Positions 1-20,542 of a stretch of DNA of 40,976 nt are shown here, piece after piece. Below the pieces are notes generated by a model. That model saw only the letters and a program-made list of their open reading frames with translations. It made no database searches and had not been told where the DNA came from. The translations under genes and the position numbers were made by a program. This DNA comes from Candidatus Omnitrophota bacterium (GTDB lineage: Bacteria; Omnitrophota; Gorgyraeia; Zapsychrales; Zapsychraceae), in NCBI GenBank assembly GCA_028280285.1, contig JANQMA010000030.1, positions 1 to 40,976 of the forward strand, read 5' to 3'. Positions within the stretch are counted from its first letter, which is position 1, and every line of letters begins with the position of its first letter.

Positions 1-3000
1 TGTTAATTGGGATAATATTGGTGAGTTAAGTACAGCCGGCGTGAATTGGTCAGACTTAACTGTTATGACAGAAGCCGGCATCAATTGGTCGGATATTACC
101 GTGATGAGTGAGGCGGGTGTTAATTGGGATAATATTAGCGAATTAAGTACAGTAGGAATTAATTGGAGTAATATTGGTGAGATGAGTACCTCAGGAATCA
201 ATTGGGATAATATTGGTGAGTTATCTGCGGCAGGAGTGAATTGGAATGATGTTCGTGTTATGACAGAAACAGGAATTAATTGGGATAATGTCGGCGAGAT
301 GTCTGCGGCTGGTATTAACTGGAGTGATATCGGAGAGATGAGTGCGGCAGGCATTAACTGGGATGATATTACCGTGATGAGTGAAGCGGGTGTGAATTGG
401 GATAATATTGGAGAGCTCTCTGCTTCAGGTATCAACTGGGCAGATATTAATGTGATGAGTGAGGCCGGTATTAACTGGTCGGATATTGGAGAATTAACGG
501 CCGCCGGAGTGAATTGGTCAGACTTAACTGTCATGACAGAAGCCGGTATTAACTGGTCGGATATTGGGGTAATGAGTGCGGCCGGTGTTAATTGGGATGA
601 CTTAACGGTCATGACAGAGGCTGGTGTTAATTGGGATAATATTGGGGAATTAAGTACATCAGCTATTAACTGGAGTGACATTGGTGTCATGAGTGCAGCG
701 GGCGTCAATTGGGATAATATCGGCGAGCTAAGTACATCCGGTGTGAATTGGGATAATATTGGTGAGATGTCGGCCTCAGGAATTAATTGGGATAATATCG
801 GCGAGTTGTCATCATCAGGTGTTAACTGGAATGATATTGCTGTCATGACAGCGGCGGGTGTTAACTGGGATAATATTGGTGAGTTAAGTGCAGCAGGCAT
901 TAATTGGTCAGATATTAATGTACTCAGTGAGGCCGGTATTAACTGGTCAGATATTGGGGTGATGAGTGCCGCAGGCGTTAACTGGGATGATATTGGTGAG
1001 CTAAGTACGGCGGGTGTGAATTGGTCAGACTTAACGGTGATGACAGAGGCCGGTATTAACTGGTCGGATATTGGAGTGATGAGTGCTGCAGGCGTTAACT
1101 GGGATGATATTGGTGAGCTAAGTACAGCGGGTGTGAATTGGTCAGACTTAACGGTGATGACAGAGGCCGGTATTAACTGGAGTGATCTAACGGTTATGTC
1201 AGAAGCAGGTGTCAACTGGGATGACTTCAGTTATATGACAACAGCTGGCGTCAACTGGGCTGATTTTGCTGTCATGACAACCGCGAGCGTGAATTGGAAT
1301 GATCTACAAGTGCTGACAGAGTCTGGTGTCAATTGGAGTAACTTTGGCGAAATGACAGCGTCGGGAGTAAATTGGTCAGACTTAACTGTTATGACAGAAG
1401 CTGGCATTAATTGGAGTGATTTAGGTGTTATGTCGGCAACAGGTGTTAATTGGGACGATATTCAAGTGATGACAGAAGCGGGTGTTAATTGGAGCAATTT
1501 TGCGGAATTGTCGACGGCGGGTGTCAATTGGGATGGTATTAATGATTTAACTTCGGCAAGTGTCAACTGGGATGATTTAAGTGAAATGACACAGGCTGGA
1601 ATAAATTGGTCTGATTTTGGTGTCTTATCAACATCAGGTATTAATTGGAGTGATTTACAGGTGATGACGGAGGCAGGGGTAAACTGGGATAATATTGGTG
1701 ACATGAGTACCGCCGGCGTCAACTGGTCAGATTTGACTGTTATGACAGAGGCTGGCATTAATTGGAGTGATTTAGGTGTTATGTCGGCAACAGGCATTAA
1801 TTGGAGTGATTTAACGGTCATGACAGAGGCGGGTGTTAATTGGGATAATTTTAGTGAATTGACCGCAGCCGGTGTTAACTGGTCGGATCTGACGGTCATG
1901 ACAGAAGCCGGTGTGAATTGGGATGATATCGGCTCGATGACAACCGCCGGTGTTAACTGGGATAGTATTGGTGATATGACAACCTCTGGTGTTAATTGGG
2001 ATGATTTGACGGTCATGACAGAAGCTGGTGTTAATTGGAGTAATTTTGGAGATATGACAACAGCAGGTGTTAATTGGGACAGTATTGGTGAGTTATCGAC
2101 TGCGGGGGTCAATTGGGATGGCTTTAATGAATTAACGACGGCAGGTGTCAATTGGGATGATTTTGGTGTTATGACAACAGCCGGTATTAATTGGGATAAT
2201 GTTGGCGATATGACAACCGCCGGTGTCAATTGGGATGAAATCACAGTAATGAGTGAGGCGGGGGTTAATTGGGCGAATTTTGGTGATTTATCGACGGCCG
2301 GCATTAATTGGAATGGTATTAGTGAACTAGCCGATGCGGGAGTTAATTGGTCAAACTTTGCACAGTTATCGACAGCGGGAGTGAATTGGGCTGGCATTAA
2401 TGAAATGACACAGGCGGGCATCAATTGGGATAATATGACTGATCTAAGTACAGCGGGCATCAATTGGGAAGGTTTTGGTGATTTATCGACGGCTGGTGTG
2501 AACTGGTCAGATCTACGTGTTATGAGCGAAGCGGGTGTGAACTGGTTGGATATGGGAAGTATGACAACAGCCGGTGTTAATTGGAGTGATCTAACAATTA
2601 TGTCAGAAGCCGGCGTGAATTGGGCCGGGTTTGAAGCATTATCAACAGGTGGTGTGAACTGGGATAATATTGGCGACTTAAGTACAGCGGGTGTGAACTG
2701 GTCGGATCTAAAGATTATGAGCGAGGCGGGTGTGAATTGGTCAGGTTTTGAAGCATTATCAACAGGTGGTGTGAATTGGGATAATATTGGTGAGCTAAGT
2801 ACAGCGGGTGTGAATTGGGCGGATCTAACGGTTATGAGTGAAGCCGGTGTCAATTGGGATGGTGTTGGGGCACTCGCAAGCTCTGGTGTTAATTGGGATA
2901 ATATTGGTGAAATGTCCGTCGCTGGTATTAACTGGAATGGTGTTGGGGCACTTGCTAGTGCTGGAGTCAATTGGGATGGTGTTGGAGCGCTCGCCAGTGC

Positions 3001-4230
3001 TGGTGTTAATTGGGATGATATTGCGAGTTTATCAGCCGCGGGTGTGAACTGGAATGATCTTACTGTCTTGAGTGAAGCCGGTGTCAACTGGTCGGATCTG
3101 ACAGTGATGAGCGAGGCTGGTGTTAATTGGAATGATATGACAATCATGACAGAAGCCGGTATTAATTGGAATGATCTACAAGTTATGTCGACGACCGGTG
3201 TCAATTGGGATGATCTTCAAAACTTTAGCACCATTGGTATTAACTGGTCAAATATCCAAGATCTATCAGCAGCCGGCGTTAATTGGGATGGTATTAATGA
3301 ATTAACAACATCAGGCATTAATTGGAGTGATATTAGTGTATTGAGTGAAGCCGGTATTAACTGGAGTAATATCGGAGACTTAAGTACCGCTGGTGTGAAT
3401 TGGTCGGATATCAATGTGATGACAGAGGCTGGTATTAATTGGGATGACATTACAAGTATGACGACAACAGGTATTAATTGGAATGATATCGGTGCGATGA
3501 CAACTGCTGGTGTTAATTGGGATAGTATTCAGTCTATGTCAACAGCGGGTGTGAACTGGTCGGATATTACAGTTATGACGGAATCAAATATCAACTGGGA
3601 TAGCGTCGGAAGTATGACCGTTTCTGGTATTAACTGGTCAAATATTGGTGACTTGAGTGCCGCTGGTGTCAATTGGAGTGATATTGGTGTGATGAGTGAG
3701 GCTGGTGTTAACTGGAGTGATATCGGGACAATGTCTTCGCAGGGTATTAATTGGGATGGTATCCAAGATTTATCTGTTGCCGGTGTGAACTGGAGTGGTA
3801 TTCAAGACTTGAGTCTATCGGGCGTTAATTGGGATGATATTGCCGAGTTAAGTCTGGCGGGAGTTGATTGGAGTAATATTGCTTCCATGGCTAATGCCGG
3901 AGTGAACTGGGATGGTATTGCCGATCTAGCGGCGGCAAGTGTGAATTGGAGTAATGTCGCCGATCTCGCCGCGGCGGGTGTGAATTGGACGAATATTTCC
4001 AATCTGGCCTCAGCCGGTGTCAATTGGGATGGTGTGGCTGAGATGACAAGCTCTGGCGTTAACTGGGATGATGTCGCCGAGATGAGTACTGCTGGTGTTA
4101 ATTGGGCGGACATAGCGTTTATGAGTGGTACAGGTATTAACTGGGAGGATATGAGTACATCAAGTACTGCCGGTATTAATTGGAGCGATCTTGCGGCAAT
4201 GAGTAATAATGGCATCAATTGGGATGGGGT
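1..4230 (+). repeat. Coding tandem repeat with a 39-nt period (about 108 units). It includes near-identical 117-nt blocks made of three units, e.g. around 1013-1180.
   Basis: Direct reading shows '...ggtgtgaattggtcagacttaacggtgatgacagaggccggtattaactgg...' recurring with codon-level variation. Antisense ORFs 1462-3204, 3217-3450 and 3802-4233 are mirror artefacts of this repeat. Confidence 0.9.
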
Positions 4231-5008
4231 CAATTACTTGGCCGATAATGCACAAACACTCGTCAGCAATGTTTCAAGTATTCTTACAGCAGTGACCACG
4301 ATTAGCTCCCTTGTTGGAACGGCGAGTGATACGTCATCAGCCAGCACGTTGTTTGGAAAGATTGCGGAAGTTAATGATACCGTTTCAGGACTAGATGTGT
4401 CAGATGTGGGAACACTTGTAACTAAAGTAACAGCTATTGAAACGCTTCTTGGTGGTACGGATGATACTGTTGATAGTTCGACGATATTTGGTGATCTGAA
4501 TCAAGTTGAGGCATTGCTTGGTCTGGCAGCTAATGCGACGACAGATGATACTGTATTCGGGCGATTAAATGATATTCAAGAAAATGCTTCAAGTGGAAAG
4601 TCCAGTGCGGATGCAGCGCTCGGTATTGTACAAAATATTAGAGCTGATCTTGGTGTCGACGGACAAACACCAGATTTATATGATAAAGTAACCTCGCTTG
4701 AATCAGCGTTGCAAAATTTAGATACGGTTGTTGCACAATTAGCGACTAATCAAGTCAGTGCGGATGTATTGGCGCGACAAATGCTTGATATCTTAACAGA
4801 GCTTCTTAATCAAAGTGCAGATTTAGCTGGTCTGGAAGAATTGGAAGTTGAAGAAACAGACGCTGAAATAGAAGGCGAGATGGATATGGAAGAAGTCAAT
4901 GACCGCTTGTCTGAGATCGAGGCTAAATTAGAAGCAATCGCTGAGATGCTTGATAAGGATGGTATAGGTGAGGTTGTAATCAAGACATACTTTGAAAGCG
5001 CGCAATAA
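2..5008 (+). CDS. Giant tandem-repeat protein, 5'-partial (frame open from nt 2; >1655 aa in window). About 108 copies of a 13-aa unit A-G-[VI]-N-W-[SDN]-[DN]-[IL]-[GT]-[EV]-[ML]-[ST]-[EA], then a ~250-aa Ser/Thr-rich, acidic coiled-coil C-terminal domain.
   Basis: The ORF track gives one 1655-aa ORF. Reading the same frame back to nt 2 continues the repeat ('VNWDNIGELSTAGVNWSDLTVMTEA'), so the gene begins upstream of the window. The 39-nt periodicity is visible in the DNA. The last ~250 aa are non-repetitive and end in an acidic 'EELEVEETDAEIEGEMDMEE...IEAKLEAIAEML' coiled-coil-like tail. The stop TAA at 5006-5008 overlaps the next ATG. Confidence 0.8.
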   Translation, partial: VNWDNIGELSTAGVNWSDLTVMTEAGINWSDITVMSEAGVNWDNISELSTVGINWSNIGEMSTSGINWDNIGELSAAGVNWNDVRVMTETGINWDNVGEMSAAGINWSDIGEMSAAGINWDDITVMSEAGVNWDNIGELSASGINWADINVMSEAGINWSDIGELTAAGVNWSDLTVMTEAGINWSDIGVMSAAGVNWDDLTVMTEAGVNWDNIGELSTSAINWSDIGVMSAAGVNWDNIGELSTSGVNWDNIGEMSASGINWDNIGELSSSGVNWNDIAVMTAAGVNWDNIGELSAAGINWSDINVLSEAGINWSDIGVMSAAGVNWDDIGELSTAGVNWSDLTVMTEAGINWSDIGVMSAAGVNWDDIGELSTAGVNWSDLTVMTEAGINWSDLTVMSEAGVNWDDFSYMTTAGVNWADFAVMTTASVNWNDLQVLTESGVNWSNFGEMTASGVNWSDLTVMTEAGINWSDLGVMSATGVNWDDIQVMTEAGVNWSNFAELSTAGVNWDGINDLTSASVNWDDLSEMTQAGINWSDFGVLSTSGINWSDLQVMTEAGVNWDNIGDMSTAGVNWSDLTVMTEAGINWSDLGVMSATGINWSDLTVMTEAGVNWDNFSELTAAGVNWSDLTVMTEAGVNWDDIGSMTTAGVNWDSIGDMTTSGVNWDDLTVMTEAGVNWSNFGDMTTAGVNWDSIGELSTAGVNWDGFNELTTAGVNWDDFGVMTTAGINWDNVGDMTTAGVNWDEITVMSEAGVNWANFGDLSTAGINWNGISELADAGVNWSNFAQLSTAGVNWAGINEMTQAGINWDNMTDLSTAGINWEGFGDLSTAGVNWSDLRVMSEAGVNWLDMGSMTTAGVNWSDLTIMSEAGVNWAGFEALSTGGVNWDNIGDLSTAGVNWSDLKIMSEAGVNWSGFEALSTGGVNWDNIGELSTAGVNWADLTVMSEAGVNWDGVGALASSGVNWDNIGEMSVAGINWNGVGALASAGVNWDGVGALASAGVNWDDIASLSAAGVNWNDLTVLSEAGVNWSDLTVMSEAGVNWNDMTIMTEAGINWNDLQVMSTTGVNWDDLQNFSTIGINWSNIQDLSAAGVNWDGINELTTSGINWSDISVLSEAGINWSNIGDLSTAGVNWSDINVMTEAGINWDDITSMTTTGINWNDIGAMTTAGVNWDSIQSMSTAGVNWSDITVMTESNINWDSVGSMTVSGINWSNIGDLSAAGVNWSDIGVMSEAGVNWSDIGTMSSQGINWDGIQDLSVAGVNWSGIQDLSLSGVNWDDIAELSLAGVDWSNIASMANAGVNWDGIADLAAASVNWSNVADLAAAGVNWTNISNLASAGVNWDGVAEMTSSGVNWDDVAEMSTAGVNWADIAFMSGTGINWEDMSTSSTAGINWSDLAAMSNNGINWDGVNYLADNAQTLVSNVSSILTAVTTISSLVGTASDTSSASTLFGKIAEVNDTVSGLDVSDVGTLVTKVTAIETLLGGTDDTVDSSTIFGDLNQVEALLGLAANATTDDTVFGRLNDIQENASSGKSSADAALGIVQNIRADLGVDGQTPDLYDKVTSLESALQNLDTVVAQLATNQVSADVLARQMLDILTELLNQSADLAGLEELEVEETDAEIEGEMDMEEVNDRLSEIEAKLEAIAEMLDKDGIGEVVIKTYFESAQ

Positions 5009-6342
5009 TGAAAGCATCGAATTATTATCGTCGGTTTAGATTTTTATTATTTATTGGTTTATTGTTCTTTTTCATAAGTGTTGCAAAAAATTCTTCAGCG
5101 GATCTTTATATCAATATTCTTGCTGTTAACGGAGCCGACGTAGCTCAGGATAAAGAGATCAATCATGTTCTTCCTAAAGAGCTCGCTAAAGAGGATGTGG
5201 TTGATACAGACGGACTTGAGTTGAAATATGATGTTGACGCCGGTGCTTATAGTGTTACTGGTGTTGTCAAACTGGGCGCTAAAGACACAAAGACCTATAA
5301 AGTCCGTGTCCGGGACGTCTGGAAAGTTGATGAAAATGAAATTGTACAGATTCAAGAAGAGATTGATAAAAATCTTGCCCGTATTAAGGATACGGAATTT
5401 TTCCCGACCGGTCAGATCAAAAGAGAAAGTCTTATTGAACGCTTGGATTTTATTGTTAAACAGCAGGAAAAGTTTGCGGATAATATTGAAAAGCGTATTG
5501 GCCGTTACCGTATTTATGAGAAAGAATTAAGCGAGATTCGCACCAATGCTCTTTCTGTTAAATATTGGAAGTCAAGGCCGCCGACACCGGATGAAGCCGA
5601 TATTTTTACCTATATCATTGAGCTGGAAAACCCCAATGATGAAGAAGAAGCAATATTATCCCCGAAGCATTATGTGCCAAAAGAAGTTAAACCTGAACAT
5701 TTTGTTGAGCTTCAAGGGTTTGAAGTCAAGTATGATGCTTTAAAGGGAAGATCCTATCTTCAAAAAGAAGATAAGCTGAAAGCACAGCAGAAAAAACGTT
5801 ATGAAATCGGCATTATTGATATTTGGAAAATCCGCGATTACGAAATTGAAGAATTGCGGGATCGTACGGCAAATGCGTTTGAGCTTTTAAGAGGATCAGA
5901 ATTTCTCGACAGTGCCGAGTATTTGGCCCAAGTCATTACCAAAAATCTTGATTATTTGGTTGAGTCGCAAAAAATCGACCGTTCGATTAATGATCATATT
6001 GCGGCTTACCGTAAAAATAAAATAATTTATGACAAAACTGTTGAAGATGTTGAAGCGCTCGAACGTTTATTAGAAGCATTACGCGAGGATCTGGAACGCA
6101 GTAAAGTTAAAAAAGTTCTTGAGAAAATTTCAGAACAGGCCAATCTGGCATCGATTGTTAAAACGATCTTTAAAAAGCCTGATATTAACACAGCATGGAA
6201 AATTATTCTGGGAGTTGTTATATTCGTTGGAATTTACACCTTGATTCACTTTACTATATGGGGCATACGTTCGAAAAACGCGAAGATCGAAGAGACACAG
6301 AAACCTGCCTCTTCGGATACGCCAGAAGAAGACAAGGAGTAA
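5008..6342 (+). CDS. Membrane-anchored coiled-coil protein. It has an N-terminal signal or anchor, two ~55-aa internally duplicated modules, a long charged coiled coil and a C-terminal transmembrane helix. Function unknown; translationally coupled to the repeat protein.
   Basis: The N-terminus 'MKASNYYRRFRFLLFIGLLFFFISVAKNSSA' is hydrophobic. The C-terminus has 'AWKIILGVVIFVGIYTLIHFTIWGI'. There is an internal duplication ('LKYDVDAGAYSV...YKVRVRDVWKVDENEIVQIQEEI' versus 'VKYDALKGRSYL...YEIGIIDIWKIRDYEIEELRDR'). A TAATG overlap links it to the upstream CDS. Confidence 0.6.
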   Translation: MKASNYYRRFRFLLFIGLLFFFISVAKNSSADLYINILAVNGADVAQDKEINHVLPKELAKEDVVDTDGLELKYDVDAGAYSVTGVVKLGAKDTKTYKVRVRDVWKVDENEIVQIQEEIDKNLARIKDTEFFPTGQIKRESLIERLDFIVKQQEKFADNIEKRIGRYRIYEKELSEIRTNALSVKYWKSRPPTPDEADIFTYIIELENPNDEEEAILSPKHYVPKEVKPEHFVELQGFEVKYDALKGRSYLQKEDKLKAQQKKRYEIGIIDIWKIRDYEIEELRDRTANAFELLRGSEFLDSAEYLAQVITKNLDYLVESQKIDRSINDHIAAYRKNKIIYDKTVEDVEALERLLEALREDLERSKVKKVLEKISEQANLASIVKTIFKKPDINTAWKIILGVVIFVGIYTLIHFTIWGIRSKNAKIEETQKPASSDTPEEDKE

Positions 6343-6346: not shown

Positions 6347-7912
6347 TTGACTGAATTAAGATACACAGAAGTCGGCAAGGTAAAAAGTATCCGGGGATGT
6401 ATTGTCTTTGTCATCGGACTTAATAACTGTATTAATGGTCAGTTAGTTGAGTTTGGTTTCGGGACATTCGGGACTATTCTTGGGTTTACGGAAAAGGATG
6501 CGCAGGTGCTTATCGTTAAAGAAAGCACGCCTATTAAAACGGGTGATGAGGTGCGTGCATCGCTGGAACCGTTTAATGTTCCTGTCGGTGAGAATTTTAT
6601 TGGACGGATTGTTAATCCGCTGTGCGATCCGTTTGACGGGCTTGGCCCGATAAAGCCTGATGAGCATTATCCTATTTTTCCTTTAGCGCCGGGTATCCTG
6701 GATAGAAAAGTTTTGCATAAGACGCTTGAAACAGGGACAAAAGTTGTTGATGCGATGATTCCGGTCGGCATGGGACAGCGTGAACTTGTTTTGGGTAATA
6801 AGATGACGGGCAAGACCACGCTTATTACAGATTGTGTTATTAATCAAAAAGGCAAAGATGTCATTTGTATTTATTGTGCGATTGGAAAGGCGCGCTCTCA
6901 GTTGGCGCGTGTTGTACAGCTCTTTCAGGATCATGATGCGTTTGACCATACGATTATTGTAGCCGCTCCGTCTTCATCACCGCCAGGCCAGCAGTATTTA
7001 GCACCGTATGTTGCCTGTTCAATCGGTGAGTATTTTATGCACCGGGGTAAGGACGTGTTTATCGGCTTTGATGATTTCACCAAACATGCCTGGTGTTATC
7101 GGGAAATATCGCTTTTACTTGGTCGTCCACCGGGGCGCGACTCTTATCCGGGGGATATTTTTTATCTGCATTCAAAGATGATTGAGCGGGCATGCCATTA
7201 TGATGATGCTCATGGCGGAGGATCAATGACGTTTTTACCGCTGGTTGAAATTCTTGAGGGCGACTTAACAGCATTCGTCCCGTCAAACCTGGTTTCGATG
7301 ACCGATGGTCAGATTCTTCTTGATGCGGCGATGTTTGGGCAGGGACAAAAGCCGGCGCTAGATCTTGGTCTTTCTGTTTCGCGTGTTGGAACCAAGGTGC
7401 AATGGCCGATTATCAAGGACTTGGCCGCCCCAATGCGTTTGGAATATTTGCAGATTCGCGAGCTGCAAAAATCATCTAAGTTGCGCTCAGGTCCACAGTC
7501 CGAAGAACTTATGGAACGTTTAAAGAGTGGGGAGGTTTTAACAGCCCTTATGTGCCAGGGGAAAAATAAACCGGTGCCGCTGGAAGCCTTGGCGCTTATG
7601 CTTTATGCCTTCCGGGAAAAATATATTATCGATTTAAAACCGCAACAGTTAGAAAAATTTCAAGATGAGATTTTTGATTATGCTAAAGAAAAGAACCCTG
7701 AATTTTTAACGAAATTAAGGGAAGAAAAAAAGCTCAGTGAGGAAATTGAAAAGGTCATGCAGGACATTTTACAAACCTATGTGCGTGAACGGTGTCCGGC
7801 AGGCGCAACGGGAACTGAGGAGGAAGAAGAAGGCGACGATATCGTATCAAACATTGGCCGTGATGTTCTCGACGAGGCAGCTTCCAAAGGCCTTGAAAAA
7901 AGCAAAAGTTAA
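6347..7912 (+). CDS. atpA: F-type ATPase alpha-subunit homologue (non-catalytic nucleotide-binding subunit). TTG start.
   Basis: It aligns along its length to F1 alpha: 'GQRELVLGNKMTGKTT' (P-loop), 'LLGRPPGRDSYPGDIFYLHSKMIERA' (cf. '[26 protein letters not shown]'), 'PALDLGLSVSRVG' (arginine-finger region) and 'AFVPSNLVSMTDGQI'. An RBS 'aaggag' sits 8 nt upstream of TTG 6347. Confidence 0.85.
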   Translation: MTELRYTEVGKVKSIRGCIVFVIGLNNCINGQLVEFGFGTFGTILGFTEKDAQVLIVKESTPIKTGDEVRASLEPFNVPVGENFIGRIVNPLCDPFDGLGPIKPDEHYPIFPLAPGILDRKVLHKTLETGTKVVDAMIPVGMGQRELVLGNKMTGKTTLITDCVINQKGKDVICIYCAIGKARSQLARVVQLFQDHDAFDHTIIVAAPSSSPPGQQYLAPYVACSIGEYFMHRGKDVFIGFDDFTKHAWCYREISLLLGRPPGRDSYPGDIFYLHSKMIERACHYDDAHGGGSMTFLPLVEILEGDLTAFVPSNLVSMTDGQILLDAAMFGQGQKPALDLGLSVSRVGTKVQWPIIKDLAAPMRLEYLQIRELQKSSKLRSGPQSEELMERLKSGEVLTALMCQGKNKPVPLEALALMLYAFREKYIIDLKPQQLEKFQDEIFDYAKEKNPEFLTKLREEKKLSEEIEKVMQDILQTYVRERCPAGATGTEEEEEGDDIVSNIGRDVLDEAASKGLEKSKS

Positions 7913-7918: not shown

Positions 7919-8191
7919 ATGGGACGCATTATTAAATTTAAATGTATTATTTTAAGTCCCCATTCATTGATCTATGAAAATGAAGTTGAGAGCGTTTTTT
8001 TGACAGGTGATCAGGGAGAGTACGAGCTTCTTGCCTATCATTATCCATTGGTTGGCGTTTTAAGAAGAGGTGATGTGATTATTGATTGGAATCATAAGGT
8101 GTCAATCAACAGTGGGGTGGTTAAGTTTTTTGCCAATGAATGCTTGATTATGATTGAGGAAGACGTCAGGAAAAAAGTAAAAATTAAGTAA
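7919..8191 (+). CDS. atpC: F1 epsilon-subunit-like protein with the N-terminal beta-sandwich only (90 aa). It lacks the C-terminal inhibitory helical hairpin.
   Basis: 'LTGDQGEYELLAYHYPLVGVLRRGDVII' aligns with epsilon '[28 protein letters not shown]'. The protein ends about 45 aa earlier than canonical epsilon. Confidence 0.6.
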   Translation: MGRIIKFKCIILSPHSLIYENEVESVFLTGDQGEYELLAYHYPLVGVLRRGDVIIDWNHKVSINSGVVKFFANECLIMIEEDVRKKVKIK

Positions 8192-8200: not shown

Positions 8201-8422
8201 ATGGTACCAGAATATTTTTTAATAATTGGAATGATGCTCGTTGTTGTGGCAGGCCCGTCTATTGTGATCGGCATGTTAGGGCATGCGGTTATTAAAGCAC
8301 TTGCGCGTAATCCATCGGCGGCAAGTAAAATATTTTTAGGTATGATGGTGATGCTTGTTTTTGTTATTGCACTTTCACTGGTGGCTATGTTGATTATTTT
8401 CCAATTGTTTGGGACAAAATAG
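8201..8422 (+). CDS. Fo c-subunit-like two-helix hairpin protein (73 aa) that lacks the conserved ion-binding Asp/Glu in the second helix.
   Basis: It has two hydrophobic helices joined by an 'ALARNPSAAS' polar loop (cf. the c-subunit 'ARQP' loop). TM1 is Gly/Ala-rich ('VVAGPSIVIGMLG'). TM2, 'IFLGMMVMLVFVIALSLVAMLIIF', has no acidic residue. Confidence 0.5.
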   Translation: MVPEYFLIIGMMLVVVAGPSIVIGMLGHAVIKALARNPSAASKIFLGMMVMLVFVIALSLVAMLIIFQLFGTK

Positions 8423-8656
8423 ATGAGAGTATTTGATCAGTGGTTAGAAGCCTTTATTATAGTTTGTATTATGTCGGTTATTATTGCCATTCCATGTTTT
8501 TTGACTGTTTTGGTGGGGCGAAAAATGATCAACAGGATCGGGCAGTATCCGACACAAGCACCAACAATACAAATGAGTATTTGGCTTCAATTAGTAGCTA
8601 TTGAGGCTGTTGGGTTTTTGCTGTTAATTATGTTTTATAATTTTTTCTCTGATTAA
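8423..8656 (+). CDS. atpE: Fo c-subunit-like hairpin protein (77 aa) with a Glu in TM2. Probably the ion-binding c paralogue.
   Basis: The ATG immediately follows the previous TAG. It has two helices with an 'RIGQYPTQAP' loop. TM2, 'LQLVAIEAVGFLLLIMF', places Glu where c subunits carry the carboxylate (cf. 'GLVDAIPMIAVG'). Confidence 0.5.
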   Translation: MRVFDQWLEAFIIVCIMSVIIAIPCFLTVLVGRKMINRIGQYPTQAPTIQMSIWLQLVAIEAVGFLLLIMFYNFFSD

Positions 8657-8677: not shown

Positions 8678-9424
8678 ATGGATGTGACATTAATCATTAG
8701 TTTTGTCATTTTTATGATAGTCTTTGTGGGGCTTGCCGGTTTTATCCTGCACAGAGTTTTTGTGGCCAATACCGACGGGGCGATCCAGCGTTTGGATAAT
8801 GAATACGCTGATGCGACAAAAAAGCAGGCCGAACTGAATAGAAAATTAAGGCAGTCTGATGAAGAGCTGGCCAAGCGCCGCGCAGAAGCCCGGGAGTTAA
8901 CGGAAAAGCTGCGTAGTGAAACCGAAGAAGAGACGAAGACTGAGCGGGATAATATTATTCAGAAAGCCCGTGCCGAAGGTGAAGAAATTATTGCCAAAGC
9001 GAAGGGGGCAACGGAAACTTTACGCAAAGAATTAGAAAAAGAAATGGATGCGAAGTTTATTCAATACAGCATGCGTATTTTAAATACCATTCTTGCTGAT
9101 CATGCGAAGGGGGCGTTTAATCAGGTTTTAGTTGATGAGTATCTGACCAAATTAAAAGATGCAGACCTTTCCAAAATTGGCCCTGATGTTAAAGATGTTG
9201 AGGTGACGGCAGCCGGGGAGATAGCTGATGATGTTAAGAGTAAAATAAGCGCAACATTAAAAGAGAAAGTTGGCCGTGATTTTAATGTAACCGTTAAACA
9301 AGATAAAGAACTTGGTGGCGGTATTGCGCTTAAATTCGGGAGTATGGCGCTTGATGGTAGTTTAAATGGTCTTATCCGCCAAGAAGGCCTTAAAATGCAG
9401 CAGGAAGTGGATGACCGAAACTAA
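8678..9424 (+). CDS. Fused b-delta peripheral-stalk subunit: N-terminal transmembrane helix, charged coiled coil, and a C-terminal OSCP/delta domain.
   Basis: The N-terminus has a TM helix 'LIISFVIFMIVFVGLAGFIL' followed by a Lys/Glu/Arg-rich helix. The C-terminus 'SKISATLKEKVGRDFNVTVKQDKELGGGIALKFGSMALDGSLNGLIRQ' matches the delta C-terminus '[49 protein letters not shown]'. An RBS 'aaaggag' lies upstream. Confidence 0.7.
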   Translation: MDVTLIISFVIFMIVFVGLAGFILHRVFVANTDGAIQRLDNEYADATKKQAELNRKLRQSDEELAKRRAEARELTEKLRSETEEETKTERDNIIQKARAEGEEIIAKAKGATETLRKELEKEMDAKFIQYSMRILNTILADHAKGAFNQVLVDEYLTKLKDADLSKIGPDVKDVEVTAAGEIADDVKSKISATLKEKVGRDFNVTVKQDKELGGGIALKFGSMALDGSLNGLIRQEGLKMQQEVDDRN

Positions 9425-9432: not shown

Positions 9433-10284
9433 ATGGGAAAAGCAAACCGTAAAAAAATTGAATTGATTGAGACCGGTGAAATGGTGGGGCTTATTCAAAC
9501 CCTTAAGGATATTGCCGACAGTAAATATTATTCGATGCTCGGGGAAAAAGAGAAGTTAAGACGGTTTGGTGAGATGTTTGTTGAGTTTTTCCGTTTAATC
9601 AGTTTAACGGGATGCGAGCATCCGCTTATTAAAAATGACAATAAAAAGGTCGGGATTGTTGTTGCGACGGGAGAGGGAAGTTTTTTAGGAAAATTTAATG
9701 GCTCTATTTTAAGCCTTGCCGAGCGTCAACAGAAAGAATATGAAGAATATGAATACATTGCGGTCGGAGCGCGTGGCGCTGAACGTTTGGAACAATATAC
9801 GCCTGATTTAAAGGTTTTTTCCGGTTTTGAAGAAATCGGTATCTATGAGATGGCCATTCAGTTGAAAGATTATCTCATTGAAAAAATTATGGATGGTCAT
9901 TATGGCAAAATTATTGTTGTCTATTCCTGGCCGAAAACCCAGGACATTCAAAGACCACGGATTGTTAATTTATTGCCATGTATTGATTTGGCATCTAAGC
10001 AAGCGGAGTATGTCGAGGAGTTTGAAAAAGTCATTGAAGAGTCTGATTCGCGTGATACTGTCGGTATGTTGGCGCAGATTTGGGTTACATCCAGATTGTA
10101 TGAAATATTTTTAGATCTTCTTATTGCCGCGGCAGCGGCTCAGGCCTCATTTTTGGATGATAGTGTTGATAAGATGAAAAAGGAAGAAGTGAAAGCACGG
10201 TTTGCCTACCGTAAAGCCAAGAAGGGTGATATTGATAAAAGTTTGCGGGAAACATTTTCTGCACGATTGATTGCTAATGGATAA
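9433..10284 (+). CDS. atpG: F1 gamma-subunit-like protein (283 aa).
   Basis: Its length and its N- and C-terminal helices fit gamma. 'KKVGIVVATGEGSFLGKFNGSILS' aligns with gamma '[24 protein letters not shown]', and 'YIAVGARGAERL' with 'LAMIGSKGVSFF'. It is positioned between b-delta and beta. Confidence 0.6.
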   Translation: MGKANRKKIELIETGEMVGLIQTLKDIADSKYYSMLGEKEKLRRFGEMFVEFFRLISLTGCEHPLIKNDNKKVGIVVATGEGSFLGKFNGSILSLAERQQKEYEEYEYIAVGARGAERLEQYTPDLKVFSGFEEIGIYEMAIQLKDYLIEKIMDGHYGKIIVVYSWPKTQDIQRPRIVNLLPCIDLASKQAEYVEEFEKVIEESDSRDTVGMLAQIWVTSRLYEIFLDLLIAAAAAQASFLDDSVDKMKKEEVKARFAYRKAKKGDIDKSLRETFSARLIANG

Positions 10285-10291: not shown

Positions 10292-11947
<1,656 letters not shown>

Positions 11948-11949: not shown

Positions 11950-14151
11950 ATGAAAAGTGCCGATAATAAAATAAAAAGTGCGCTCATCCGTTTTAATGTT
12001 CTAAGTGAAGAAGAATTAGCCCCCCATGTTTCAGCCGCCCAAGAGGCAGGCTTACCCCTTAAAAGTTATTTACTTCAAAACGAAATTGTCACGGAAAAAC
12101 AGATTCTCATAGCGGTCTCGCAGAGTGTCAATTTGCAGACAGTTGATTTAAATACAGCGGATATTGAACAAAGCCTTCTTGATAAAGTTCCTATCAAAAT
12201 TGCCTGGCATTATAAAGTCATCCCTTTAAAGATTGAGAGTGATATTTTATATGTGGTGGCATCCGAACCGCTTAATGTTAAAATCCTTGACGAGATCCGT
12301 ATGCATATTGGCCATGAGGTTGAGGTTATGCTAAGCACCCATACGCAGCTTATGGATGGGTTTAAGAAATATTATGGCTTTGCGTCTGATACCATTGATA
12401 AAATCATGACAAAGGAGCCGCAGCGGGCGAGTGTAAGCGCGGCCAATGCCGGCCAATGGGTTGAAGATATTGAAAAAGAAACGGATGACCCGACAGTTTC
12501 TAATCTGGTTAATCAGATTTTACTGGAAGCTTATAAAAAGCGCGCGACAGATATTCATATTGAACCGTACCGGGATAAGGTAAGATTCAGATACCGCATT
12601 GATGGTGTTTTGGTGGACGCGAATCTTCCTGAAAAAGTAAAACATTTTCTGCCTCCCATTCTTTCACGTATTAAAATCTTAGCGAACCTCAGCATTACGG
12701 AGAAAAGAGTGCCGCAGGACGGTAGTGCCGTTGTTAAAACAACCGAAGAGCAACTTGATTTGCGTGTTTCCACTGTGCCGACACCGCGTGGAGAAAGCAT
12801 GGTCATCCGCATTTTGCCGACGAAGGTAAGGCTGTTCAGTTTGGAAAAACTCGGGTTTGAAGATAAAGATGTGAAACATTTTAGAAACATGATTAAAAAA
12901 CCCCATGGTATTATTTTTATCACTGGGCCGACAGGAAGTGGAAAGACAACGACCCTTTATGCCTGTTTAAATGAAATTAACTCATCGGAAACAAAGATTA
13001 TTACCATTGAGGATCCGGTCGAGTATGAAATGGAAGGCATTACACAAGTTCAGGTTAATAACAAACTTAAATTTTCATTCTCAACCGGGTTGAGAAGTCT
13101 TTTGCGTCATGATCCGGATATTATTATGGTAGGTGAGGTGCGTGATTTAGAAACAGCGGAGATTTCTATCCGCACAGCCCTGACAGGCCATCTTGTGTTT
13201 TCAACATTGCATACCAATGATGCCCCAAGTGGTGTGACACGTTTAATCGATATGGGGATTGAACCTTATCTGGTGTCCTCAAGTGTCGAAGCCTTTGTGG
13301 CCCAGCGTTTGGTGCGTACGATTTGTCCTAAATGCAAAAAGGGAGTCGAAGATGTTTCCCCGGCTATTGTCGAGGAGATTGTGCAATCATTAAAAATCAA
13401 AGATCCATCGACGATGAAATTTTATGAAGGCGCCGGGTGTGATCATTGCAACCAGACAGGGTTTTTTGGAAGACAGGCTATTTATGAAATATTGAACATT
13501 AATGATACGTTGCGGGCGGCTATTATTGAAAAACCCCGTTCCGATTATATTAAAAGAATTGCCATTGGCGAAGGCATGAAAACATTGCGGCAAAATGGCT
13601 GGGAGGCTGTTTTAAAGGGGTTAACCACAGTCAACGAAGTCCTCAATGTTTCTGTGCGTGATAAGGTTTATCAAGGTGATGCCGTCGTTTCACCTGATTC
13701 TTCTCAAGTCACTGTGAATGAACAGAGATTGCCTAAACCGGCCCAAAATTTCGGTAAAAATAATCGCAGTTATCCGCGTATTGAAGATCCTGTCAAAATG
13801 CGCTACAGGCTCTTGCGGAAAGACCCCCAAGATCCGAGTTTTTTATTAACCGACGGTGTTGAACATCCAACTAAAACAATTGATATCAGCGCCGCAGGTT
13901 TAAGGTTTGTGTCTAATGCCTTGATTGAAATAGGGACTATCTTAGAAATCAAGATTCAATTTGGCGGAGACTTTCCAAGTATCGATTGTCTGGCAAAGGT
14001 CTGCCGCGTCGAAGATGAAGGGGAGAAAAATCTTTTTGGTATCGTTACGTATTATTTGGATATTTCAAGTGCCGATAAAGCCTTGATTAATAAATATGTC
14101 GAGGGAAAGCTAGCTGCATCTTCCGCCGAAGTTAAACATAAAACTTCTTAA
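11950..14151 (+). CDS. gspE: GspE/PilB-family secretion-pilus assembly ATPase (733 aa). It has an N-terminal GspE-N/MshEN-like domain, a Walker ATPase core with a tetracysteine motif, and a C-terminal PilZ-like domain.
   Basis: Walker A 'GPTGSGKTTTL'. 'IITIEDPVEYE' and 'MVGEVRDLETAE'. Cysteine cluster 'CPKC...CDHC'. The C-terminal ~110 aa contain 'RSYPR' and 'RYRLLRK', followed by 'IDISAAGLRF' (RxxxR ... DxSxxG, as in PilZ). It starts 2 nt after the atpD stop. Confidence 0.85.
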   Translation: MKSADNKIKSALIRFNVLSEEELAPHVSAAQEAGLPLKSYLLQNEIVTEKQILIAVSQSVNLQTVDLNTADIEQSLLDKVPIKIAWHYKVIPLKIESDILYVVASEPLNVKILDEIRMHIGHEVEVMLSTHTQLMDGFKKYYGFASDTIDKIMTKEPQRASVSAANAGQWVEDIEKETDDPTVSNLVNQILLEAYKKRATDIHIEPYRDKVRFRYRIDGVLVDANLPEKVKHFLPPILSRIKILANLSITEKRVPQDGSAVVKTTEEQLDLRVSTVPTPRGESMVIRILPTKVRLFSLEKLGFEDKDVKHFRNMIKKPHGIIFITGPTGSGKTTTLYACLNEINSSETKIITIEDPVEYEMEGITQVQVNNKLKFSFSTGLRSLLRHDPDIIMVGEVRDLETAEISIRTALTGHLVFSTLHTNDAPSGVTRLIDMGIEPYLVSSSVEAFVAQRLVRTICPKCKKGVEDVSPAIVEEIVQSLKIKDPSTMKFYEGAGCDHCNQTGFFGRQAIYEILNINDTLRAAIIEKPRSDYIKRIAIGEGMKTLRQNGWEAVLKGLTTVNEVLNVSVRDKVYQGDAVVSPDSSQVTVNEQRLPKPAQNFGKNNRSYPRIEDPVKMRYRLLRKDPQDPSFLLTDGVEHPTKTIDISAAGLRFVSNALIEIGTILEIKIQFGGDFPSIDCLAKVCRVEDEGEKNLFGIVTYYLDISSADKALINKYVEGKLAASSAEVKHKTS

Positions 14152-14169
14152 ATCCTTTCGTAATTCATT

Positions 14170-15378
14170 ATGATGACGACATATGTTTATACCGCAAAAA
14201 AAAGTAATGCCGAGACGGTCGAAGGACGTATTAACGCTTCTTCCGAAGAAGAGGCCATTGATTTAATCAATCAGCTTGGGCTTCTGCCTGTTTCGGTCGA
14301 TGTTGCCGATAAAGAAGAACACGCGCCGGTCAAGGTGAGGGGGACGATCAAATCAAAGGACCGGCTGCTTTTTTCCCGCCAACTGGCCAATCTTCTTAAA
14401 TCCGGACTGCCGCTTTTAAAAGCACTTAAAATTTTAGAAGAACAAACACATAACCGTTATTTTCGAAGAGTGATCCGTCAAATCGCCGATGGGGTTCAAA
14501 ATGGACGTTCTTTTTCAGAATGCCTGGAGGATTATCCACAGATATTCTCCAATCTTTTTGTCACAATGGTACGGGCCGGGGAGGAAAGTAGTAATTTAGA
14601 AGAAATGCTTGTGCATGTCTCTGCGTATCAAAAGCGACAGGAAGATATTAAATCAAAGGTTAAAACGGCGATGACATATCCGGCCCTAATGGCTTTCGTG
14701 GGGGTGCTTGCTGTTTATTTTATTTTAACATTTGTGCTTCCTAAAATGGCAGGGCTTTTTGACAGTATAGGTGAGGCACTGCCTTTGCCCACAGTCATTT
14801 TATTTGCGTTGAGTGATATTTTAACAACTAATGGCTGGTCGATTTTAATCGGATTTACAGTCTTGGTTATGATGATACGCGCTGTCGGATACTTAGAATT
14901 TGGGAAAATATTCACAGGCAGTTTTGTATTAAAGATACCTCTTTTTGGGGACATTATCCATAAGAGCGAGCTTTCACGTTTTGCGCAGGCACTTGTACTG
15001 CTTCTTAAAAATGGTGTGGCTATTCTCCGTGCTCTTGATGTGGCCGTACCTATCATAAGTAACCGTGTTTTGCAGGCAGATTTTGCCGCGTGTAAAGAGG
15101 CGCTCAGCAAAGGTGACTCATTCGGGGAAACGCTCAAAGGGTCGAAGCATGTTCCTTCTATCATGGCCCATACCATAGCGGTGGGGGAGGAGTCCGGGCA
15201 TTTGAATGAAGTGTTGACGGAAATTGCAGACAGTTATGAAGAAGAAACGAATGAGGCAATTAAGGTGGCCACGACACTGATTGAGCCGCTGATGATTATG
15301 ACAATCGGTCTTGTCATTGGTTTTATAATTTTTGCCATGCTCCTGCCTATTTTTCAAATCGATATGCTGGCGGCATAA
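14170..15378 (+). CDS. gspF: GspF/PilC-family inner-membrane platform protein.
   Basis: 402 aa. It has two repeated cytoplasmic domains ('LANLLKSGLPLLKALKIL', 'AQALVLLLKNGVAILRAL') and three TM segments, and sits in the canonical position after the ATPase. Confidence 0.8.
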   Translation: MMTTYVYTAKKSNAETVEGRINASSEEEAIDLINQLGLLPVSVDVADKEEHAPVKVRGTIKSKDRLLFSRQLANLLKSGLPLLKALKILEEQTHNRYFRRVIRQIADGVQNGRSFSECLEDYPQIFSNLFVTMVRAGEESSNLEEMLVHVSAYQKRQEDIKSKVKTAMTYPALMAFVGVLAVYFILTFVLPKMAGLFDSIGEALPLPTVILFALSDILTTNGWSILIGFTVLVMMIRAVGYLEFGKIFTGSFVLKIPLFGDIIHKSELSRFAQALVLLLKNGVAILRALDVAVPIISNRVLQADFAACKEALSKGDSFGETLKGSKHVPSIMAHTIAVGEESGHLNEVLTEIADSYEEETNEAIKVATTLIEPLMIMTIGLVIGFIIFAMLLPIFQIDMLAA

Positions 15379-15379
15379 G

Positions 15380-16174: not shown

Positions 16175-16226
16175 AGTGTAGTATATTGGATTATAGTATG
16201 AGTAAGGAAAAATTGGAGGAAGACAT

Positions 16227-16655: not shown

Positions 16656-16710
16656 CCCAAGACACCTAATTCATATCATTACTGTCGATTTAACTATGAG
16701 TTAAATCAGA

Positions 16711-17952: not shown

Positions 17953-17973
17953 TATTTAGGGAATAAGGGTCAT

Positions 17974-19008: not shown

Positions 19009-19085
19009 TGATTTTATGTTGATTGGTTTTTATTATTTAATATATAATAACTATCAATATAAAGAGTTTAGAAAAGGAATCTGTA

Positions 19086-20540: not shown

Positions 20541-20542
20541 AG

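What the first reader, a model, noticed from the sequence alone, without database searches (positions are those of the whole stretch)
8201..8656. Tandem c-subunit-like hairpins, the first without an ion-binding carboxylate
Two adjacent 73- and 77-aa two-helix proteins both resemble Fo c. Only the second has a Glu at the position of the proton/Na+-binding residue. The first has Leu/Val there and keeps the polar loop 'ARNPSAAS' and a Gly/Ala-rich TM1. A mixed ring with non-conducting protomers, or a purely structural membrane anchor, would fit an ATPase that hydrolyses ATP but does not translocate ions.
Basis: seen in the sequence. Interest (0 to 1): 0.6.

Follow-up and report, generated by a model that had tools for sequence, protein, structure and literature searches.

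The report
Two c-subunit paralogues, a-less F-ATPase
Two small membrane hairpin genes are diverged copies of the ATP-synthase rotor subunit c, sitting in an Omnitrophota F-type ATPase operon that has no ion-channel subunit a and is wired to a pilus/secretion system, so the enzyme probably burns ATP to turn or anchor a machine, not to make ATP.

Summary
Window 8201-8422 (c1, 73 aa) is a true Fo c-subunit homologue. Window 8423-8656 (c2, 77 aa) is a fast-evolving paralogue of c1 (hhalign 98%, E 1.5e-13). c1 has Ile56 (ATT) where c subunits carry the ion-binding carboxylate; c2 has Glu61 in the same column.

The missing carboxylate is not a design feature of the family. 118 of 120 c1 homologues keep Glu, as do almost all of 80 species-level loci. 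Only the window (Ile), its nearest relative (Val) and one unrelated locus (Val) lost it. c1 remains under strong purifying selection (dN/dS about 0.08). c2 lost its acid in about 10 of 70 loci, and one clade has no c2.

The genes lie in a strictly conserved Omnitrophota operon: giant repeat protein, 444-aa anchored protein, alpha, epsilon, c1, c2, b-delta fusion, gamma, beta, PilB-PilZ, PilC, pseudopilins. No subunit a was found in the window or within ±10 kb in 87 loci.

This is the "symbiotic" non-respiratory F-type ATPase noted by Seymour et al. 2023. Its membrane sector is not discussed in the papers I could search.

Best reading: an ATP-hydrolysing F-type motor with a c1/c2 ring and no canonical ion path. 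This is inferred, not shown.

The parts
8201..8422 (+). c1: Fo c-subunit homologue, 73 aa. RNPSAAS loop (R36-N37-P38). Ile56 (ATT, 8366-8368) replaces the family's conserved Glu.
   Evidence: PF00137 24.8 bits. PDB c-subunit hits. AF2 hairpin, pLDDT 90.8. Foldseek top 50 all c subunits. 118/120 homologues have Glu. dN/dS 0.08 against the nearest relative.
8423..8656 (+). c2: divergent c-subunit paralogue, 77 aa. Invariant Pro24-Cys25 in TM1, G-x-Y-P-T loop, Glu61 (GAG, 8603-8605) in the carboxylate column.
   Evidence: hhalign against the c1 family: 98%, E 1.5e-13. c2 HMM hits all c1. Present right after c1 in about 79 of 87 loci. AF2 hairpin. Small family, 54 representatives among 1.84e9 proteins.
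6347..7912 (+). F1 alpha subunit (non-catalytic). It lacks the first ~20 residues of canonical alpha.
   Evidence: TIGR00962 atpA 498 bits (cut-off 484). PDB alignment starts at residue 22-30 of canonical alpha; the SVSRVG Arg finger is present.
7919..8191 (+). Epsilon subunit, beta-sandwich domain only (90 aa); no C-terminal helical domain.
   Evidence: PF02823 E 2.2e-10, covering residues 7-80.
8678..9424 (+). b-delta fusion: N-terminal TM helix, coiled coil, then an OSCP/delta-like C-terminal domain.
   Evidence: PF00213 OSCP E 6.4e-10 (residues 102-233) and PF00430. The best NCBIfam model is the N-ATPase long b, TIGR03321, at 59 bits, below its cut-off.
9433..10284 (+). Gamma subunit (divergent).
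   Evidence: PF00231 E 8.1e-22. TIGR01146 at 53.6 bits, below its cut-off of 194.
10310..11947 (+). F1 beta subunit (catalytic) with an ~85-aa acidic N-terminal extension.
   Evidence: TIGR01039 atpD 530 bits (cut-off 463). [26 protein letters not shown] and DELSPED are all present in the alignment to PDB F1 beta.
5008..6342 (+). p444: signal peptide, two internal repeats, coiled coil and a single C-terminal TM helix. It lies directly upstream of alpha wherever that position is covered.
   Evidence: No significant Pfam hit. Conserved position in the loci. Conservation map.
41..5008 (+). Repeat-rich surface protein made of ~13-residue 'INW' repeats. It corresponds to the C-terminal part of the giant ORF found in relatives.
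   Evidence: ORF. PF25533 188 bits. The homologous gene is 10,444 aa in L002. Synteny.
11950..15378 (+). PilB/GspE ATPase with MshEN and PilZ domains (11950-14151), and the PilC/GspF platform protein (14170-15378). PilB starts 3 nt after the beta stop codon.
   Evidence: PF00437 E 3.9e-128, PF05157, PF07238, PF00482. Conserved synteny.
15332..22018 (+). Remainder of the pilus/T2SS-like module: MA peptidase, GspG-like pseudopilin, two N-methyl pilins, GspK, PilM-PilN fusion, PilO, TPR protein.
   Evidence: Pfam hits. Synteny.

Best explanation
c1 and c2 are two paralogous Fo c-type hairpins of the Omnitrophota 'symbiotic' F-type ATPase.

Proposed mechanism:
- An alpha3-beta3 head with intact catalytic residues hydrolyses ATP.
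- It turns a gamma / short-epsilon stalk that docks on a membrane ring built mainly of c1. c1 is highly conserved and keeps the R-N-P loop that contacts gamma/epsilon in known enzymes.
- c2 is inserted in the ring as a second, faster-evolving protomer.
- A b-delta fusion forms the peripheral stalk.
- No subunit a is encoded, so there is no canonical two-half-channel ion path. The ring acts as a rotor or bearing, not as an ion turbine.
- This would explain why the TM2 carboxylate can be lost from c1 (this window: Glu to Ile) or from c2 without the genes decaying.
- The work output probably goes to the co-transcribed envelope machinery: the p444 anchored protein, the giant surface protein, and the PilB/PilC/pseudopilin module.

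Shown here (computationally): the homologies, the residue states, the gene content, the synteny and the purifying selection.

Inferred: hetero-oligomeric ring assembly, rotation, absence of ion transport, and the mechanical partner.
For: - c1 is a c subunit.
- c2 is a c1 paralogue in register, with the Glu columns coinciding.
- c1 and c2 are adjacent. The gap is 0 nt in the window and a median of about 8 nt across loci.
- The order alpha-eps-c1-c2-b/delta-gamma-beta is conserved in essentially all 80 species-level loci, and 163 species genomes carry a c1 relative.
- No PF00119/subunit-a hit in any window ORF scanned, and no room between the ATPase genes. The only polytopic + strand protein within ±10 kb in 87 loci is PilC.
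- Catalytic motifs in beta and the alpha Arg finger are intact. Epsilon lacks the C-terminal helical (inhibitory, by textbook knowledge) domain.
- The carboxylate was lost independently: in c1 in the window/L005 clade and in L048, and in c2 in about 10 loci (M, G, Q, F).
- c1 dN/dS is 0.08 and c2 0.19 in the carboxylate-less c1 lineage.
- c1 is as conserved as beta (median 67% vs 70% identity to the window), while c2 is at 39%.
- Seymour et al. 2023 (PMC10066038) independently classed the alpha of this cluster as non-respiratory and co-located with type-4 pilus genes.
Against: - The TM2 Glu is conserved in about 97% of c1 and about 85% of c2 sequences. No locus lacks it in all hairpins. That is what one expects if ion binding still matters.
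- A subunit a or a functional analogue encoded elsewhere in the genome could not be excluded. Only ±10 kb per genome was available.
- No direct evidence for ring formation, stoichiometry, rotation or a mechanical partner.
- With 3 c1 losses and 10 c2 losses, the absence of double losses is not statistically informative (about 0.4 expected).
Confidence: 0.5

Rival explanations
1. It is a genuine ion-translocating F-type pump or synthase. Its stator channel (subunit a or an unrecognised analogue) is encoded elsewhere. In the window lineage the c1 Glu-to-Ile change merely lowers the number of ion sites per turn, a V-type-like gearing as in the Acetobacterium woodii hybrid ring. That would favour pumping.
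For: - Strong conservation of the Glu in both hairpins, and at least one carboxylate-bearing hairpin in every locus.
- alpha and beta pass the NCBIfam atpA/atpD equivalog cut-offs.
- Some Omnitrophota orders also encode a respiratory F-type enzyme, so an a subunit exists in those genomes.
- From my own knowledge, rings with carboxylate-less hairpins still work in A. woodii and in V/A-type enzymes. PMC9171764 demonstrates ATP synthesis with a V-type c subunit.
Against: - No a gene in the operon in any of 87 loci, although every other subunit is present and tightly packed.
- The cluster is welded to pilus/secretion and giant-protein genes, not to energy-metabolism genes.
- Most complete Omnitrophota genomes with alpha/beta lack a canonical gamma, which suggests there is no second F-type operon to borrow from.
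- Replacing the carboxylate of the main c subunit with a hydrophobic residue abolishes function in canonical enzymes (textbook knowledge). Here the gene stays under purifying selection.
Confidence: 0.25
2. c1 and c2 form a static membrane anchor or dock, not a rotor. The F1-like head works like the flagellar/T3SS FliI-FliH-FliJ ATPase, energising export or unfolding of the giant protein or pseudopilins at the membrane.
For: - Operon linkage to a giant secreted or anchored protein and a T2SS-like module.
- No a subunit, so no torque-generating stator in the membrane.
- The alpha N-terminus, which binds delta in canonical enzymes, is missing, and beta carries a novel N-terminal extension. This suggests altered stator contacts.
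Against: - A full rotary set is retained, with an intact DELSEED-like loop: gamma, epsilon beta-sandwich, b-delta peripheral stalk, and c with its R-N-P loop.
- A peripheral stalk is only needed to resist torque (inference).
- c1 is as conserved as the catalytic beta subunit, which is more than an anchor would need.
Confidence: 0.15
3. The window's c1 is a decaying gene or carries a sequencing/assembly error at the carboxylate codon.
For: The window c1 and its nearest relative are the only 2 of the 120 listed homologues lacking Glu.
Against: - Full-length ORF collinear with its homologues.
- ATT differs from GAA at three bases.
- The closest relative has GTG (Val) in two independent assemblies, a plausible E-to-V-to-I path.
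- dN/dS is 0.08 with saturated dS.
- An unrelated locus, L048, also has Val.
Confidence: 0.02

Closest known systems
Omnitrophota 'symbiotic' (sF-ATP) non-respiratory F-type ATPase next to type-4 pilus clusters (Seymour et al. 2023, PMC10066038)
   Same: Same gene cluster and phylum. The paper reports co-location with pilus genes in 57 of 66 contigs, and an alpha subunit outside the respiratory clade. My 80 loci show the same synteny.
   Different: - The paper analysed alpha/beta phylogeny and co-location only. Its text and the supplements held do not mention the c or a subunits.
- The two c paralogues, the b-delta fusion, the missing subunit a and the sporadic carboxylate loss are described here.
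- By NCBIfam scores, alpha and beta are closer to canonical atpA/atpD than to the Mycoplasma type 2/3 models.
Hetero-oligomeric c rings with carboxylate-less hairpins: Acetobacterium woodii F/V-hybrid ring (PDB 4BEM) and V/A-type c, c', c'' proteolipids
   Same: Paralogous c hairpins in one operon, some lacking the ion-binding carboxylate. 4BEM appears among the Foldseek matches of c1. The principle is discussed in PMC9171764.
   Different: Those enzymes have a subunit a (or its V/A-type counterpart) and translocate ions. Their carboxylate-less hairpin is fused to a carboxylate-bearing one. Here the hairpins are separate genes, either one can lose the acid, and no a subunit is encoded.
Mycoplasma Type 2 (G1, gliding) and Type 3 (F1-like X0, MIB-MIP) ATPases (PMC3369863, PMC11864180, PMC12994834)
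   Same: - F1-type alpha/beta/gamma/epsilon used for a non-chemiosmotic surface function.
- No subunit a.
- A secreted protein with C-terminal TM helices is encoded just upstream of alpha. p444 occupies that position here.
- beta carries an N-terminal extension.
   Different: The Mycoplasma clusters have no c, b or delta homologues and instead carry a 12-TM protein. The Omnitrophota cluster keeps c (twice), b and delta. NCBIfam scores fall below the type 2/3 cut-offs (371 vs 600; 411 vs 850; 283 vs 520; 395 vs 570).
N-ATPase (atpDCQRBEFAG) with AtpQ/AtpR
   Same: A second, divergent F-type operon. It has a long b subunit of ~246 aa without a separate delta; TIGR03321 is the best NCBIfam hit for the b-delta protein. 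It also has small extra membrane proteins.
   Different: N-ATPases have subunit a and a different gene order. All alt_F1F0 models score far below their cut-offs. c2 is a c paralogue, not AtpQ/AtpR.
Flagellar/T3SS ATPase complex FliI-FliH-FliJ
   Same: An F1-related ATPase with b/delta-like and gamma-like partners, serving an envelope export machine.
   Different: That complex is a homohexamer with no c ring. Here alpha and beta score 160-190 bits against FliI/SctN models, versus about 500 against atpA/atpD.

Membership tests
Fo subunit c (PF00137 ATP-synt_C), tested for c1 | Sequence match to the family model at or above the curated cut-off | tested here: met
   24.8 bits against a cut-off of 24 (marginal) for the window copy. 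Nearly all the homologues listed carry a precomputed PF00137 hit. The family profile hits PDB c subunits at E 1.2e-4.
Fo subunit c (PF00137 ATP-synt_C), tested for c1 | Two-helix hairpin with a polar R-(N/Q)-P loop | tested here: met
   AF2 gives H2-36 / H38-70, pLDDT 90.8. R36-N37-P38 are invariant in the family. Foldseek top 50 are all c subunits.
Fo subunit c (PF00137 ATP-synt_C), tested for c1 | Carboxylate (Asp/Glu) in the middle of TM2 | tested here: not met
   The window has Ile56 (alignment). The feature is met in 118 of 120 homologues and in almost all loci.
Fo subunit c (PF00137 ATP-synt_C), tested for c1 | Gly-rich GxGxGxG packing motif in TM1 | tested here: not met
   GPSIVIG, against GPGVGIG in the aligned Chloroflexus c subunit.
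Fo subunit c, tested for c2 | Detectable homology to c subunits | tested here: met
   Homology is indirect only. hhalign against the c1 family gives 98%, E 1.5e-13, and the c2 HMM hits c1 at E 1e-7 to 1e-13. Direct Pfam and PDB searches fail; PF00137 is hit by 3 of 67 members at E >= 0.005.
Fo subunit c, tested for c2 | TM2 carboxylate | tested here: met
   Glu61 is in the same column as the c1 family Glu. Acidic in about 66 of 78 scorable c2 sequences.
AtpQ / AtpR / AtpI accessory proteins | Match to the corresponding Pfam/NCBIfam models | tested here: not met
   No such hit for c1 or c2 at E <= 1. None among the 25 families listed for the 67 c2 sequences.
Canonical F1Fo ATP synthase | Complete subunit set including subunit a (PF00119) | tested here: not met
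   alpha and beta pass the atpA/atpD cut-offs. gamma, epsilon, b, delta and c fall below the equivalog cut-offs. No a gene in the window or in ±10 kb of 87 loci. The rest of the genomes was not searchable.
N-ATPase | alt_F1F0 alpha/beta/b models, AtpQ and AtpR, order atpDCQRBEFAG | tested here: not met
   TIGR03324 465.7 vs 750.5; TIGR03305 451.6 vs 752; TIGR03321 59.2 vs 224.7. The gene order differs.
Mycoplasma Type 2/3 F1-like ATPases | NCBIfam MMOB1660/1670 or MSC_0619/0618 models; X0 partners (a 12-TM protein and a small cytoplasmic protein) | tested here: not met
   371 vs 600, 411 vs 850, 283 vs 520, 395 vs 570. No 12-TM protein in the cluster. Architecture as described in PMC12994834.
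Omnitrophota 'symbiotic' F-type ATPase / T4aP locus (Seymour 2023) | Divergent F-type alpha/beta within 10 kb of type-4 pilus genes in an Omnitrophota genome | tested here: met
   beta stops 3 nt before PilB. Relatives are named Omnitrophota/Omnitrophica. L003 is GCA_001804475.1, Zapsychrus unditaenarius, in that paper's genome table. Placement of the alpha in that paper's tree was not recomputed.
Hetero-oligomeric c ring | Physical co-assembly of c1 and c2 in one ring | not testable with these tools
   Only monomer prediction was available. The evidence is indirect: paralogy, adjacency and co-conservation.

The most novel reading that the evidence does not exclude
An F-type ATPase that keeps a c ring, central stalk and peripheral stalk but has dispensed with subunit a. 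On this reading the ring is an ATP-driven mechanical rotor with no ion turbine. It transmits torque to a T2SS/type-4-pilus-like machine, or to the p444/giant surface protein, in predatory or epibiotic Omnitrophota. It would be an evolutionary intermediate between F1Fo and the Mycoplasma F1-like motors.
Probability: 0.3. Interest if true: 0.9.

Novelty: new variant of a known kind. Interest (0 to 1): 0.62.

Why it matters
Rotary ATPases are defined by coupling a c ring to an ion path through subunit a. Here an F-type operon is conserved in at least 163 species-level genomes. It keeps the ring (as two paralogues), both stalks and a catalytically intact head, but encodes no subunit a. It is co-transcribed with a pilus/secretion module and a giant surface protein.

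The ring carboxylate can be lost from either paralogue while the gene stays under purifying selection. That is a natural experiment suggesting the ring has a function apart from ion transport.

If confirmed, this would be a bacterial F-type motor doing mechanical or secretory work. It would bridge canonical F1Fo and the Mycoplasma F1-like motors. It would also give a handle on how ultra-small Omnitrophota attach to or attack hosts.

For annotation: c2 is an unrecognised c-subunit family, and the "incomplete F1Fo" calls in Omnitrophota genomes most likely reflect this divergent complex rather than gene loss.

Tried and rejected
- The word-index homology search with c2 found only the query itself. 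c2 homologues had to be taken from DNA next to c1 homologues.
- The c2 profile against PDB sequences gave only chance hits to cyclotides.
- Pfam on eight extra polytopic ORFs from the loci gave nothing. All are minus-strand ORFs, and at least some overlap the giant gene.
- A search for a conserved intramembrane Arg that could replace subunit a in p444 or in the b-delta TM helix found none. There are only boundary basic residues.
- Four multi-stretch hits in the 1.84-billion-protein search (P0167, P0169, P0170, P0174) are repeat translations, not multi-hairpin c proteins.
- Two papers' texts and supplements were searched for per-genome atpB (K02108) data. The stored tables were cut or silent, so presence of subunit a elsewhere in the genomes could not be settled.
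- A sequencing error or pseudogene explanation for Ile56 was rejected.
- AtpQ/AtpR/AtpI identity was rejected.
- No expression data for the cluster were found in a Velamenicoccus-containing enrichment paper.
Full report
**1. What is at 8201-8656**

Two + strand ORFs fill the interval.
- c1 is 8201-8422 (73 aa).
- c2 is 8423-8656 (77 aa).
- The c1 stop TAG is immediately followed by the c2 ATG.

They are the third and fourth genes of a tightly packed + strand block:

| Gene | Coordinates |
|---|---|
| alpha | 6347-7912 |
| epsilon | 7919-8191 |
| c1 | 8201-8422 |
| c2 | 8423-8656 |
| b-delta fusion | 8678-9424 |
| gamma | 9433-10284 |
| beta | 10310-11947 |

Upstream lie a 1655-aa repeat protein (41-5008) and a 444-aa protein (5008-6342). 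Downstream, 3 nt after the beta stop, comes a PilB/GspE ATPase with MshEN and PilZ domains. It is followed by PilC/GspF, an MA peptidase, GspG-like and other pseudopilins, GspK, PilM-N, PilO and a TPR protein.

**2. c1 is a c subunit**

- The window copy reaches the Pfam gathering score of PF00137 (24.8 vs 24 bits).
- Its only NCBIfam matches of note are F0F1 subunit C models, all far below their equivalog cut-offs.
- A profile of 24 family members hits only F- and V-type c subunits in the PDB. The best is Chloroflexus aurantiacus c, 9itj_H, at E 1.2e-4. The family's Glu aligns with the ion-binding Glu.
- AlphaFold2 predicts a helical hairpin (H2-36, H38-70, mean pLDDT 90.8).
- All 50 best Foldseek matches in the PDB are F-type c subunits. 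The E values are weak (0.17-1.2), as expected for a 73-residue hairpin.
- The R36-N37-P38 loop is invariant in the family.
- The GxGxGxG motif of TM1 is not present: GPSIVIG against GPGVGIG.

**3. c2 is a diverged paralogue of c1**

- c2 alone has no Pfam or NCBIfam hit.
- The word-indexed protein search found only the query itself.
- A 71-81-aa gene nevertheless follows c1 in almost every related locus.
- An HMM built from five of these sequences hits every c1 at E 1e-7 to 1e-13, in a database of 6582 ORFs.
- hhalign of 67 c2 sequences against the c1 family gives 98% probability, E 1.5e-13, over 75 columns. The Pro of TM1, the loop Pro and the TM2 Glu are in register.
- A single-sequence AF2 model is a hairpin (H2-41, H48-76, pLDDT 82).
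- Pfam scans of all 67 members give PF00137 as the most frequent family (3 members). No AtpR/AtpI-type family appears among the 25 listed.
- phmmer against 1.84 billion representatives finds only 54 hits, four of them spurious repeats. This is a small, unannotated family.
- c2 evolves much faster than c1: mean column identity is 45% against 78%.
- Pro24-Cys25, Gly32 and Pro43 are (near-)invariant.

**4. The carboxylate**

In the window, c1 has Ile56 (ATT, 8366-8368) at the carboxylate position, and TM2 contains no other acidic residue. c2 has Glu61 (GAG, 8603-8605).

This is not the rule for the family.
- 118 of the 120 best c1 homologues have Glu. The exceptions are the window itself (Ile) and its closest relative P0002 (Val).

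Residue states across 87 loci (80 species-level genomes, six metagenome or genome places, and the window):

| State | Loci |
|---|---|
| c1 Glu, c2 Glu/Asp | 63 |
| c1 Glu, c2 non-acidic (Met, Gly, Gln, Phe) | 10 |
| c1 Glu, no scorable c2 (one clade plus a truncated contig and a frameshifted copy) | about 9 |
| c1 non-acidic, c2 Glu (window; L005/L006; L048) | 4 loci, 3 distinct sequences |

- L048 is unrelated to the window clade. It also carries a third hairpin gene, a c1-like copy without an acid.
- The codons read GAA (L001), GTG (L005) and ATT (window), a plausible Glu-to-Val-to-Ile path.
- L005 and L006 are independent assemblies with the same Val.
- c1 dN/dS between the window and L005 is 0.08, with dS about 1.3. 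c2 is 0.19.
- The Ile is therefore real, and the carboxylate-less c1 is a functional gene.
- No locus lacks the acid in all hairpins. With so few losses, only about 0.4 double losses would be expected by chance, so this says little.

**5. The enzyme around it**

- beta has [26 protein letters not shown] and DELSPED.
- beta scores about 450 bits against canonical F1 beta chains, and 334 against the Mycoplasma mobile G1 beta.
- beta carries an ~85-residue acidic N-terminal extension.
- alpha has the SVSRVG Arg finger. It begins at the equivalent of residue 22-30 of canonical alpha. By textbook knowledge, this means it lacks the segment that binds delta.
- alpha and beta pass the NCBIfam atpA/atpD cut-offs. 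They fail the N-ATPase and the Mycoplasma type 2/3 models. gamma, epsilon, b and delta are recognisable only below the cut-offs.
- epsilon is the beta-sandwich domain only.
- The peripheral stalk is a single b-delta fusion.

**6. No subunit a**

- None of the window ORFs scanned matches PF00119.
- The ATPase genes leave no room for another gene.
- The order giant protein, p444, alpha, eps, c1, c2, b/delta, gamma, beta, PilB, PilC, peptidase, pseudopilins is kept in essentially all loci.
- Within ±10 kb of c1 in 87 loci, the only polytopic + strand protein is PilC. The other candidates are minus-strand ORFs without Pfam hits.
- No conserved intramembrane Arg was found in p444 or in the b-delta TM helix.
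- I could not search the rest of these genomes.

**7. What is already known**

- The relatives are Omnitrophota.
- L003 is Zapsychrus unditaenarius in Seymour et al. 2023.
[quoted passage not shown] It proposes a role in attachment or motility on host cells.
- Its text and the supplements held do not mention the c or a subunits.
- West-Roberts et al. 2023 describe T2SS-like loci next to the giant genes but no ATPase of this kind.
- A 2026 preprint reports alpha/beta in 125/176 complete genomes but gamma in only 30. It reads this as an incomplete F1Fo. The divergent gamma seen here explains that pattern (inference).
- Mycoplasma type 2/3 "F1-like X0" ATPases serve gliding and the MIB-MIP antibody-cleavage system. 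They have no c, a, b or delta. They do have a secreted protein with C-terminal TM helices encoded just upstream of alpha (PMC12994834), which is the position p444 occupies here.

**8. Interpretation**

The most economical reading has the following parts.
- It is an ATP-hydrolysing rotary F-type motor.
- Its ring is made of c1, with c2 as a second protomer. c1 is as conserved as beta and keeps the R-N-P loop. c2 is dispensable in one clade, has a longer loop and evolves fast.
- Without subunit a there is no canonical ion path. The TM2 carboxylate would then be a retained but non-essential feature, which fits its repeated loss under continued purifying selection.
- The output of the motor is unknown. 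The operon structure points to p444, the giant protein and the T2SS/T4P-like module.

The main rival is an ion-coupled enzyme whose stator is encoded elsewhere. The strong conservation of the Glu supports it, and I give it about 0.25. A static-anchor, T3SS-ATPase-like role gets about 0.15. A sequencing or pseudogene artefact gets about 0.02.

**9. Verdict**

Both genes are c homologues, and a non-chemiosmotic role is plausible.
- The carboxylate-less c1 is a rare lineage-specific variant of a family that normally keeps the Glu.
- The broader and more interesting point is a phylum-wide, a-less F-type ATPase with two c paralogues. This is a new variant of a known kind.

Noticed in passing
window 41-5008 (+): A 1655-aa protein built almost entirely of ~13-residue 'G(I/V)NW(S/D)D(I/L)xVM(S/T)EA' tandem repeats, with a coiled-coil C-terminus. 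It hits PF25533 Lysostaphin_N at 188 bits. The gene at the same position in relatives is a giant ORF (10,444 aa in L002). The window ORF starts at base 41, so it is probably truncated by the contig end.
   Followed up: partly
window 5008-6342 (+): p444 has a signal peptide, two internal repeats (LP.E...G.E..YD..G.Y...TY.V...D.W), a coiled coil and one C-terminal TM helix. It has no Pfam family. It lies directly upstream of alpha wherever that position is covered. It is a positional analogue of the secreted, C-terminally anchored protein upstream of alpha in Mycoplasma type 2/3 ATPase clusters.
   Followed up: partly
L048:7140-7836 (+): Three consecutive hairpin genes: c1 with Val at the carboxylate site, a second c1-like copy with no acid, then c2 with Glu. 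This is an independent loss of the c1 carboxylate, accompanied by a duplication.
   Followed up: partly
L076:5156-5595 (+); L071, L073, L075, L078, L082, L085: One clade has no c2; c1 is followed directly by b-delta. Its relative L076 has an extra c-like gene upstream of c1 that mixes c1 motifs (GPS) with c2 motifs (GRYPSSAS) and carries a Glu. This suggests recurrent duplication of c in this system.
   Followed up: no
window 10310-10570 (+): beta carries an ~85-residue acidic, low-complexity N-terminal extension rich in E, Q and P. alpha (6347-) lacks the ~20 N-terminal residues that bind delta in canonical enzymes. The b-delta fusion covers only positions 40-165 of the OSCP model.
   Followed up: partly
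window 11950-14151 (+) and 29139-31106 (+): The PilB/GspE ATPase has an MshEN domain and a C-terminal PilZ domain. A PAS-GGDEF-EAL protein lies 15 kb downstream. This suggests c-di-GMP control of the apparatus.
   Followed up: no
window 8423-8656 and alignment A2: c2 has an invariant Cys25 preceded by a near-invariant Pro24 in TM1, and a near-invariant Gln50 at the start of TM2. c1 has an invariant F67-Q68-x-F70 motif at the periplasmic end of TM2. Canonical c subunits aligned do not show these motifs. They may mark contacts with a partner.
   Followed up: no
window 22002-28633: An STT3-like oligosaccharyltransferase (861 aa, minus strand), a trypsin-like protease, a response regulator and a GH94-like glycoside phosphorylase follow the pilus module.
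   Followed up: no
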